Source of the DNA: Rozella allomycis CSF55
Taxonomy: Eukaryota
Assembly: GCA_000442015.1 (NCBI GenBank)
Contig: KE561161.1
Coordinates: forward strand, 62,001 to 83,862
Direction: 5' to 3'
Length of the DNA: 21,862 bases
The position numbers were made by a program, and so were the translations under genes. Under the pieces are notes generated by a model. It was not told the DNA's origin. It did no database searches and saw only the letters and a list, made by a program, of their open reading frames with translations. Positions 13,622 to 15,124 of this stretch are shown piece by piece (within the stretch, counting starts at the first letter, position 1; the number at the start of each line of letters is the position of its first letter).

Positions 13622-15124
<1,503 letters not shown>

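What the first reader, a model, noticed from the sequence alone, without database searches (positions are those of the whole stretch)
13661..13688. Apparently obligate GT-TG intron in thiolase (no AG available)
Seen: exon 1 ([13 protein letters not shown], targeting-peptide-like) ends at GTAATTTGAATTAAAAATAATATAATTG (28 nt) and the conserved [15 protein letters not shown] resumes right after TTG in phase 0. The interval has in-frame stops, no AG before 13713 and no in-frame ATG for the second exon. Known: TG acceptors are very rare, described mostly as minor alternatives beside an AG in mammals. Inference: TG is a constitutive acceptor here. With 7870-7895, 12411-12437, 14363-14389 and 19859-19885, about 4-5 of 59 introns are GTAA...TG, suggesting a relaxed 3' splice-site system.
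Basis: partly seen in the sequence, partly recalled or inferred. Interest (0 to 1): 0.9.

Follow-up and report, generated by a model that had tools for sequence, protein, structure and literature searches.

The report
Probable GT-TG introns in Rozella genes
In this parasitic fungus, whose introns are only about 26-29 bases long, a thiolase gene and a neighbouring septin gene can only encode normal proteins if introns ending in TG instead of the near-universal AG are cut out, which would be an unusual loosening of the splicing rule but has not yet been seen in RNA.

Summary
The sequence observation is correct. The window is nuclear DNA of Rozella allomycis, standard code, with about 50 GT-AG introns of 25-31 nt.

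- **Thiolase gene (13622-15125):** an AUG-initiated full-length protein requires removing 13661-13688 (GTAA...TTG, 28 nt). The interval has an in-frame TGA, and there is no AG before 13713.
- **Independent DNA:** contigs from a separate run carry the same letters.
- **Strongest support, septin gene:** 12411-12437 (27 nt, in-frame TAA, no AG) must be removed exactly at GTAA...TTG. That gives a gapless match to 9 of 9 septins. The best AG-only path gives nonsense.
- **Second thiolase interval:** 14363-14389 (GTAA...TTG, 27 nt) fills 9 columns that are empty in 185 of 185 homologues. The public model reads through it.
- **Two weaker examples:** 7870-7895 and 19859-19885 both have canonical GT-AG alternatives.

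That makes 3 solid and 2 ambiguous TG cases among roughly 53-55 introns. No RNA data could be obtained, so splicing is inferred and not shown. A TTG start codon or splice-dead genes remain rivals.

Verdict: probably real sole TG acceptors, a new variant of a known rarity. Confidence 0.65, interest 0.6.

The parts
13622..13660 (+). Thiolase exon 1: ATG plus 12 codons ([13 protein letters not shown]). Four Arg and no acidic residue, so it looks like a presequence; this is inferred, not tested.
   Evidence: It is the only ATG that can lead into the conserved N-terminal block. Exon 1 holds no GT other than the donor.
13661..13688 (+). Probable intron 1 of the thiolase gene: GTAA...TTG, 28 nt, 89% A+T. 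It has no AG and contains an in-frame TGA.
   Evidence: Same letters in an independent DNA contig (X6 record 19). Length and donor fall inside the distribution of the 50 GT-AG introns.
13689..13806 (+). Thiolase exon 2 ([15 protein letters not shown]...), the conserved first strand of the thiolase fold.
   Evidence: up to 72% identity to thiolases; alignment with 185 homologues.
13622..15125 (+). Whole acetyl-CoA acetyltransferase (thiolase) gene model: 12 exons, 11 introns of 26-29 nt, 400 aa, stop TGA at 15123-15125. Introns: 13661-88 (TG), 13807-34, 13933-58, 14068-93, 14234-60, 14363-89 (TG), 14529-55, 14670-97, 14853-78, 14947-74, 15035-63.
   Evidence: model; exon 14700-14852 is 100% identical to P0002, a Rozella allomycis protein; alignment.
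14363..14389 (+). Second GTAA...TTG interval in the thiolase gene: 27 nt, 3n, no stop. It is either an intron or an exonised former intron.
   Evidence: 0 of 185 full-length homologues have a residue in these 9 columns. The public model P0002 translates it as VIAINEFKL. DNA identical in X1, X2 and X6 contigs.
12411..12437 (-). Septin intron GTAA...TTG: 27 nt, in-frame TAA, no AG. This is the best-supported TG acceptor in the window.
   Evidence: Removing exactly these 27 nt gives a gapless alignment with 9 of 9 septins. In the next exon 12-18 of 33 residues are identical, against 1-4 of 31 for the best AG-only path. The Pfam Septin profile leaves 33 positions for this 33-residue exon.
11667..13185 (-). 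Septin gene model: 9 introns of 26-29 nt, 424 aa.
7870..7895 (-). GTAA...TTG interval, 26 nt, in an orphan gene. Ambiguous; not obligate.
   Evidence: Removal joins two open frames. A 26-nt GT-AG intron at 7925-7950 also gives an open frame. Database model P0246 uses a 43-nt GT-AG intron from the same donor. There are no homologues outside this organism (1 hit in the library).
19859..19885 (+). GTAA...ATG interval, 27 nt, in-frame TAA, in a gene without recognised family. Ambiguous; not obligate.
   Evidence: A 45-nt GT-AG intron at 19851-19895 keeps the same downstream frame (6 residues fewer), but would be longer than all 50 other introns (25-31 nt). No Pfam family.

Best explanation
13661-13688 is a genuine spliceosomal intron, the first of eleven ultra-short introns in the acetyl-CoA acetyltransferase (thiolase) gene of Rozella allomycis. 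Its only usable 3' splice site is TG (UG in the RNA).

The pre-mRNA is cut at ATCAGA|GTAA and rejoined at ...AATTG|GATGTA. This links a 13-residue basic leader to the conserved thiolase core in phase 0.

This genome's introns carry very little information: GTA(A) at the 5' end, a length of 25-31 nt, and a terminal G preceded by A. I infer that the 3' end is set mainly by distance within the tiny intron plus the terminal G. A U at position -2 would then be tolerated in a minority of introns, here 3 solid and 2 possible cases among about 53-55.

Shown: the sequence anatomy, its confirmation in DNA, and the need for exact removal of the sister TG intervals to keep homology. Inferred: that the RNA is really spliced there, and the mechanism.
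For: 1. Organism and code. Exon 14700-14852 is 100% identical to a protein that a source names as Rozella allomycis CSF55. The thiolase model has no in-frame TAA/TAG and ends in TGA.

2. Only route to a full-length protein.
- Every one of 185 full-length homologues has at least one residue before the column of D14.
- The exon-2 frame is closed by TAA directly before TTG 13686 and has no ATG. ATG 13622 sits in another frame, 28 nt out. No AG lies between 13661 and 13712. Using AG 13713-14 would delete the conserved first strand and be out of frame.

3. Intron-like features. GTAA donor (34 of 50 GT-AG introns have it), 28 nt (range of the 50: 25-31, mode 26), 89% A+T (mean 74%).

4. Same kind of interval elsewhere, fixed by homology.
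- Septin 12411-12437 carries an in-frame TAA. Its exact removal gives a gapless alignment to 9 of 9 septins, with 12-18 of 33 identities in the following exon, against 1-4 of 31 for the best AG-only path.
- The Pfam Septin profile runs to position 164 at residue 47 of the 48-residue upstream exon, so the exon ends at about 165, and resumes at 199 in the exon after next. That leaves 33 positions for this 33-residue exon.
- PDB chain 9bht_A aligns contiguously across the junction.
- Thiolase 14363-14389 occupies 9 columns that are empty in 185 of 185 homologues.
- Both homology-fixed intervals end in TTG. Chance is about 0.063 squared.

5. No junction in my models of the recognisable genes needs any non-AG end other than TG.

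6. The letters are real. An X6 contig spans 11282-15930 with one difference, at 13411. X1 and X2 contigs agree at 12411-37 and 14363-89.

7. Public gene models break exactly here.
- P0002 starts at MESMSN (14105), so it lacks the catalytic-cysteine exon (VNKVCASG).
- No database protein holds exon 2 at 100% identity.
- This is what AG-only gene calling would produce.
Against: 1. No RNA evidence. All 11 runs that hold the stretch are kept as DNA-type contigs, and no joint across any intron was seen.

2. For 13661-13688 alone, TG is not forced. With the GT donor fixed, lengths of 25 (ends AA) and 31 (ends AT) also give open frames. The chance that one of three allowed lengths ends in TG is about 18%.

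3. A TTG start at 13686 would give M-D-V-F-I-V. 2 of 185 homologues also have a single residue before that column.

4. [quoted passage not shown]

6. My automatic controls for other end dinucleotides were too noisy to use.

7. No conserved branch-site motif was seen that would tie TG and AG introns together.
Confidence: 0.65

Rival explanations
1. The interval is not spliced. The thiolase is translated from a near-cognate TTG at 13686 (or from a downstream codon) on an mRNA whose leader carries a short upstream ORF (ATG 13622 to TGA 13667-69). The GTAA...TTG look is coincidence.
For: - TTG 13686 is in frame, directly after a TAA and directly before the conserved block.
- 2 of 185 homologues have only one residue before that column, and 106 have two, so a leaderless cytosolic-type thiolase is normal.
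- 85 of 204 GTAA sites have a TG at 25-31 nt by chance.
Against: - UUG is a weak start in eukaryotes (general knowledge). Position -3 is T, and an AUG lies 64 nt upstream.
- It does not explain the septin interval, which sits mid-gene with an in-frame TAA, nor 14363-14389.
- The interval matches intron length, donor and A+T content.
Confidence: 0.1
2. These are former GT-AG introns whose acceptor mutated from A to T and can no longer be spliced, or only poorly. The thiolase and septin copies in this window would then be inactive or decaying genes, and 14363-14389 is an exonised dead intron.
For: - No RNA evidence for splicing.
- 14363-14389 is 3n and stop-free, as expected for a tolerated retained intron, and is annotated as coding.
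- Runs X1 and X2 show a second sequence variant at about one third of the depth across the window, including a 1-nt deletion at 13838 in thiolase exon 3 (table 4). More than one copy or allele therefore exists.
Against: - Both genes are otherwise intact across 9 and 11 introns. All other junctions are canonical, with no frameshift or stop in any exon, and homology is high throughout.
- Random decay would not hit position -2 of an acceptor three times with the same A-to-T change and nothing else (1 in 6 per event if acceptor changes were random).
- The 13838 deletion can be compensated by an AG acceptor 4 nt upstream (my reading, not tested).
Confidence: 0.1
3. The interval is spliced, but at another non-canonical 3' end. 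Either GT...AA is removed (25 nt, leaving Leu before Asp) or GT...AT (31 nt, removing Asp). TG as such would then not be the signal.
For: With the donor at 13661, lengths of 25, 28, 31 and 34 all give open frames of about 40 codons. Homology cannot fix the N-terminal junction to one residue.
Against: In the two intervals where homologues fix the length (septin, 14363-89), the end is TTG both times. 28 nt lies in the core of the length distribution. A terminal G is kept in all 50 canonical introns.
Confidence: 0.08
4. Assembly or sequencing error: the true base at 13687 is A, making it an ordinary GT-AG intron.
For: None found.
Against: An X6 contig (depth 16.6) spans 11282-15930 with one difference, at 13411. 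X1 and X2 cover the bin at depth 268 and 165, and no difference at 13687 appears among the rows shown (40 of 282 rows were shown). Three separate intervals would need the same error.
Confidence: 0.02
5. Programmed +1 ribosomal frameshift at ATT-TGA (13664-69) joins the two frames without splicing.
For: Exon 2 is in the +1 frame relative to exon 1, and a stop lies at the would-be shift site.
Against: After such a shift, the exon-2 frame still meets TAA at 13683-85 under the standard code. It does not explain the septin interval, which is in frame with a TAA.
Confidence: 0.01

Closest known systems
TG alternative 3' splice sites of U2-type introns in human (Szafranski et al. 2007, PMC2374985; abstract and discussion read)
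   Same: GT...TG termini on otherwise U2-like introns. TG is the commonest non-AG acceptor there.
   Different: In human, TG is used only beside a nearby AG (tandem, with a distance constraint). It was 'never the sole 3' splice site', and its frequency is about 0.02%. Here the nearest AG is 25 nt downstream and unusable, TG would be the only acceptor, and the share is 3-5 of about 53-55 introns.
Rare GT-TG junctions in other fungi (Ganoderma lingzhi annotation, PMC11590231, Table 1 passage read)
   Same: GT-TG junctions supported by transcripts exist in a fungus.
   Different: 22 GT-TG against 89,855 GT-AG junctions (0.024% of all junctions). The local share here would be some 200-400 times higher.
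Genomes with ultra-short, low-information introns. Microsporidian short introns: PMC6349667, passages read. Ciliate and nucleomorph tiny introns: recalled, not checked here.
   Same: Narrow length distribution of about 25-30 nt, a strong 5' GTA, and little else. [quoted passage not shown]
   Different: Those systems are described as keeping AG at the 3' end. No TG class is reported in the passages I read.
Tunicate genomes with mass departure from GT/AG (PMC13326754; search-listing abstract only)
   Same: A lineage-wide relaxation of terminal dinucleotide rules, linked by the authors to changed U2AF and snRNA function.
   Different: There 95% of introns escape the rule and the change affects both ends. 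Here the 5' end is strictly GT and only a minority of 3' ends differ.

Membership tests
U2-type spliceosomal intron | 5' splice site GT with the genome's consensus extension | tested here: met
   GTAA at 13661. 34 of 50 GT-AG introns start GTAA and 48 of 50 start GTA.
U2-type spliceosomal intron | 3' terminal AG | tested here: not met
   It ends in TG. There is no AG from 13661 to 13712.
U2-type spliceosomal intron | Length within the organism's intron length distribution | tested here: met
   28 nt; the 50 GT-AG introns span 25-31 nt.
U2-type spliceosomal intron | Removal restores reading frame and homology | tested here: met
   Phase-0 junction to the conserved block. Exact for the sister intervals in septin and thiolase.
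U2-type spliceosomal intron | Branch-site motif upstream of the 3' end | tested here: inconclusive
   No conserved motif in either the AG or the TG introns, only A/T richness.
U2-type spliceosomal intron | Spliced junction present in RNA | not testable with these tools
   No RNA holder among the 15 runs listed. The four runs laid were DNA-type contigs without joints at introns. The single calls allowed were used.
TG-AG tandem alternative acceptor (human type) | A functional AG acceptor a few nucleotides from the TG | tested here: not met
   The nearest AG is at 13713-14, 25 nt downstream, and out of frame. The septin interval has AGs 7 and 10 nt downstream, both out of frame.
U12-type (minor) intron | Extended 5' consensus (RTATCCTT) and TCCTTAAC-like branch site (consensus recalled) | tested here: not met
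   The interval starts GTAATTTG and holds no C at all.
Thiolase family (acetyl-CoA C-acetyltransferase) | Thiolase N- and C-terminal domains with the active-site Cys block and the C-terminal GHP and CNGGG blocks (names of blocks recalled) | tested here: met
   P0002 carries PF00108 and PF02803. The 400-aa model aligns along its length with 185 homologues and contains [13 protein letters not shown] and CNGGGG.
Ciliate internal eliminated sequence (considered early) | TA-bounded DNA element in a ciliate germline genome | tested here: not met
   The organism is a fungus. A TA...TA 31-nt removal would also be in frame, but the model has no basis here.

The most novel reading that the evidence does not exclude
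[quoted passage not shown] Its spliceosome would define the 3' end by a ruler inside a roughly 27-nt intron plus a terminal G, with the usual check of A at position -2 relaxed. That may reflect a reduced 3' splice-site recognition apparatus in the lineage next to Microsporidia. Hundreds of public Rozella gene models would then be truncated or carry false insertions.
Probability: 0.5. Interest if true: 0.75.

Novelty: new variant of a known kind. Interest (0 to 1): 0.6.

Why it matters
If confirmed in RNA, this would be a eukaryote in which TG serves as a constitutive, sole 3' splice site at percent-level frequency. The human survey explicitly did not find that (PMC2374985).

It would provide a natural system for asking how the second catalytic step reads position -2 of the intron. 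It would also show what changes when introns shrink to the size of the spliceosome's active-site channel.

In practice, AG-only gene calling damages Rozella annotations. The public thiolase model lacks its catalytic N-terminal third and carries a 9-residue false insertion. These proteomes are widely used to place Microsporidia and early fungi.

Tried and rejected
**Ciliate reading.** Tiny introns first suggested a ciliate with TAA/TAG=Gln. I dropped this once named the organism and the model showed no in-frame TAA/TAG. A ciliate IES-like TA...TA excision was dropped for the same reason.

**RNA evidence.**
- No RNA holder was listed. One RNA run with the same species label held next to none of the words.
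- The four runs laid were DNA-type contigs and gave no intron joints.

**Home-made gene finders.**
- Those based on codon usage or ORF length fused genes or lost the thiolase.
- The planned control, comparing TG with the 14 other end dinucleotides, was uninformative. Antisense and non-coding frames stay open too often.
- I therefore relied on region-wise models checked by homology.

**Orphan genes.** Pfam gave nothing for the genes around 7870 and 19859. A full HMMER search of gene G found only its own database model, so homology cannot decide those two cases.

**Public models.** Database searches for models containing thiolase exon 2 or the septin exon found none at 100% identity. How annotators treated those junctions is therefore unknown, except for P0002.

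**Literature.** Searches for Rozella splice sites, TG acceptors, and the Rozella spliceosome or U2AF found no paper that describes TG acceptors in Rozella. Subscription papers, including the original genome paper, are not in the library, and supplements were closed. An intron table there could bear on this.

**Other scans.** Rfam found nothing in the window.

Full report
**What the window is.** The stretch looked at first like ciliate DNA because of its 26-29-nt introns, and I tested code 6. A search with the exon at 14700-14852 then returned a 100% identical protein that its source names 'hypothetical protein ROZALSC1DRAFT_27498 [Rozella allomycis CSF55]' (P0002). The thiolase model has no in-frame TAA/TAG and ends in TGA. 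So this is fungal nuclear DNA read by the standard code, and the stops inside the interval are real stops.

**The observation.** All the details hold.
- ATG is at 13622, and thirteen codons ([13 protein letters not shown]) run to 13660.
- A 28-nt GTAATTTGAATTAAAAATAATATAATTG follows (13661-13688).
- [15 protein letters not shown] starts at 13689 in phase 0.
- Read-through in the exon-1 frame stops at TGA 13667-69.
- The exon-2 frame is closed by TAA 13683-85 immediately before TTG 13686, and it has no ATG.
- There is no AG from 13661 to 13712, and exon 1 holds no other GT.
- An acceptor at AG 13713-14 would remove the conserved first strand and be out of frame with the only donor.

**Are the letters right?** I could find only DNA-type runs.
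- Laying four of them gave a 4649-nt contig of run X6 covering 11282-15930 with a single difference (13411) and no gaps. That run carries the same 12411-37, 13661-88 and 14363-89.
- X2 and X1 contigs agree without differences at 12197-13321 and at 14330/14347-15114.
- X6 and X7 contigs agree across 19859-85.
- Only 40 of 282 difference rows were printed, so a minor allele at these sites is not excluded.
- The run closest to the window may be its own source. The two groups of runs carry different coded organism labels and study codes, so they are unlikely all to be the window's own source.

**The gene.** The full model has 12 exons, 11 introns of 26-29 nt and 400 residues, with the blocks [13 protein letters not shown] and CNGGGG.
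- It aligns along its length with 185 full-length thiolases. I used the 185 of 226 fetched homologues that are 380-450 aa long.
- Every one of these has at least one residue before the column of D14, so a start upstream of 13689 is required.
- The public model P0002 instead starts at an internal Met (14105). It therefore lacks the catalytic-cysteine exon.
- No database protein contains exon 2 at 100% identity.
- This is what an AG-only gene caller would produce when the first intron has no AG.

**The surroundings: how introns look here.** Region-by-region models, checked against recognisable genes (adenosylhomocysteinase, a MYST acetyltransferase, septin, thiolase, diphthine synthase, an SR-beta-like GTPase and others; gene names are from my reading of the translations, except septin and thiolase, which were tested), give 50 GT-AG introns.

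| Feature | Counts among the 50 GT-AG introns |
|---|---|
| Length (nt) | 26 (17), 27 (11), 29 (10), 28 (7), 30 (2), 31 (2), 25 (1) |
| Donor | GTAA 34, GTAT 8, GTAC 5, other 3 |
| Acceptor | TAG 24, AAG 17, CAG 6, GAG 3 |
| Mean A+T | 74% |

No branch-site motif stands out. The 13661-88 interval (GTAA, 28 nt, 89% A+T) fits this picture in everything except the A at position -2.

**The sister intervals.** The bare pattern GTAA...TG is common: 85 of 204 GTAA sites have a TG at 25-31 nt. Only frame and homology count.

*(a) Septin, 12411-12437, minus strand.* The interval is 27 nt, has an in-frame TAA and no AG.
- The upstream exon matches the Pfam Septin profile to position 164 at residue 47 of 48, so the exon ends at about 165. 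The exon after next starts at position 199. That leaves 33 positions, exactly the 33 residues of the exon that follows the TG.
- PDB chain 9bht_A aligns residues 240-278 with the upstream exon and 281-307 with the downstream exon from its second residue, which is contiguous (the second match is weak on its own, E 0.72).
- Aligned with nine septins, the TG model is gapless in 9 of 9, with 12-18 of 33 identities in that exon.
- The best AG-only path (a 34-nt intron plus a GTCA-donor intron) gives 1-4 of 31 identities and a 2-residue gap.
- This interval sits in the middle of a conserved gene, so no start-codon explanation applies.

*(b) Thiolase, 14363-14389.* The interval is 27 nt, 3n and stop-free.
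- 0 of 185 homologues have any residue in its nine columns.
- P0002 translates it as an insertion.
- It is either spliced at TG or it is an exonised former intron.

*(c) 7870-7895.* Removal joins two open frames. However, a 26-nt GT-AG intron at 7925-7950 does so as well. Database model P0246 uses a 43-nt GT-AG intron from the same donor, after a long gap that is unlike any other intron here. The gene has no relatives beyond its own record: 1 hit among 1.84 billion representatives.

*(d) 19859-19885.* A 45-nt GT-AG intron (19851-19895) preserves the frame with six fewer residues. It would be the longest intron in the window. No family was found.

So there are three solid and two ambiguous cases among about 53-55 introns.

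**Statistics.**
- In the two intervals whose length is fixed by homology, the last two letters are TG both times. With a TG frequency of 0.063, that is about 0.004 by chance.
- For 13661-88, the allowed lengths with the GT donor are 25, 28 and 31 (ends AA, TG, AT). TG there adds only a factor of about 0.18.
- If acceptors were simply decaying, A-to-T at position -2 is one of six single changes of AG. Three identical hits with no other lesion in either gene argue for a tolerated signal, not random damage.

**Mechanism (inferred).** The intron carries a strict 5' GTA, a narrow length and a terminal G. I propose that the 3' end is chosen mainly by distance within the tiny intron plus the terminal G, and that U at position -2 is accepted at the second catalytic step.
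- Human work concluded that AG is checked at an early step, and that TG can be chosen only later and only beside an AG (PMC2374985, abstract and discussion).
- A sole TG here implies that the early AG check is weak or absent in Rozella.
- Whether the factor that reads AG early (the U2AF small subunit) is present could not be tested.

**Rivals.**
- *TTG 13686 as start codon.* Not excluded for this one interval, since 2 of 185 homologues have a single residue before the block. But the context is poor, an AUG lies upstream, and it explains neither septin nor 14363-89.
- *Splice-dead introns in decaying genes.* Both genes are otherwise flawless, which argues against this. Runs X1 and X2 do show a second variant at about one third of the depth, including a 1-nt deletion at 13838 in exon 3. 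This shows that more than one copy or allele exists. That deletion can be offset by an AG four bases upstream (my reading, untested).
- *Different non-canonical end, sequencing error, +1 frameshift.* All less likely. The frameshift meets TAA 13683-85.

**Comparison with what is known.**
- TG acceptors are known as rare alternatives: about 0.02% in human and never sole (PMC2374985).
- GT-TG makes up 22 of about 92,000 junctions in the fungus Ganoderma lingzhi (PMC11590231, Table 1).
- Non-GT-AG, non-GC-AG, non-AT-AC junctions make up 0.257% of fungal annotations (PMC7072748, Table 1).
- I found no paper describing TG acceptors in Rozella. The original genome paper and all supplements were out of reach.
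- I therefore rate this a new variant of a known kind, conditional on RNA confirmation.

**Verdict.** Confidence that 13661-13688 is spliced at TG is 0.65. Interest is 0.6.

Noticed in passing
window 13622-15125 vs protein P0002: The public Rozella thiolase model (284 aa) starts at an internal Met (14105). It lacks the N-terminal third with the catalytic-cysteine block and carries a 9-residue insertion from 14363-14389. It is probably an artefact of AG-only gene calling.
   Followed up: yes
window 15475-17220 (peak 16057-16638): Non-coding stretch whose word depth in DNA runs X1 and X2 is about 41,000, against about 300 for the flanks. Many contig joints and loose ends occur there, so it is a high-copy dispersed repeat. 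No Rfam family and no tandem repeat were found.
   Followed up: partly
window 13838: A contig at about one third of the depth in X1 and X2 lacks one base in thiolase exon 3, four bases after the acceptor of intron 2. An AG 4 nt upstream (24-nt intron) would restore the frame with one extra residue. This may be an allele with a slid acceptor.
   Followed up: no
window 21350-21401 (minus strand): Two perfect 26-nt intron-like units (GTAA...TAG and GTAC...TAG) lie back to back, with no exon base between them, in an ankyrin-repeat gene. This is either one 52-nt intron, which would be the longest here, or two tandem introns with a zero-length exon.
   Followed up: no
window 7612-8558 (minus strand), protein P0246: Orphan gene: 1 hit among 1.84 billion representatives, and that hit is its own model. 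The database model skips about 270 nt as one intron, which is out of keeping with the 25-31-nt introns elsewhere in the window.
   Followed up: partly
whole window: About 50 GT-AG introns of 25-31 nt (mode 26) lie in about 14 genes. Intron density in the thiolase is 11 per 1.2 kb of coding sequence, far above the 2.5 introns/kb quoted for the Rozella annotation in PMC8476143. Tiny introns may be under-called genome-wide.
   Followed up: partly
window 5818-6093 (+): A 92-codon open frame whose translation looks to me like the C-terminal part of a cysteinyl-tRNA synthetase (not tested). It has no room for the rest of the gene before the next gene at 6186. It may be a fragment.
   Followed up: no
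window 4416: A single N inside a TPR-protein gene on the minus strand. My models of that gene are unreliable around it.
   Followed up: no
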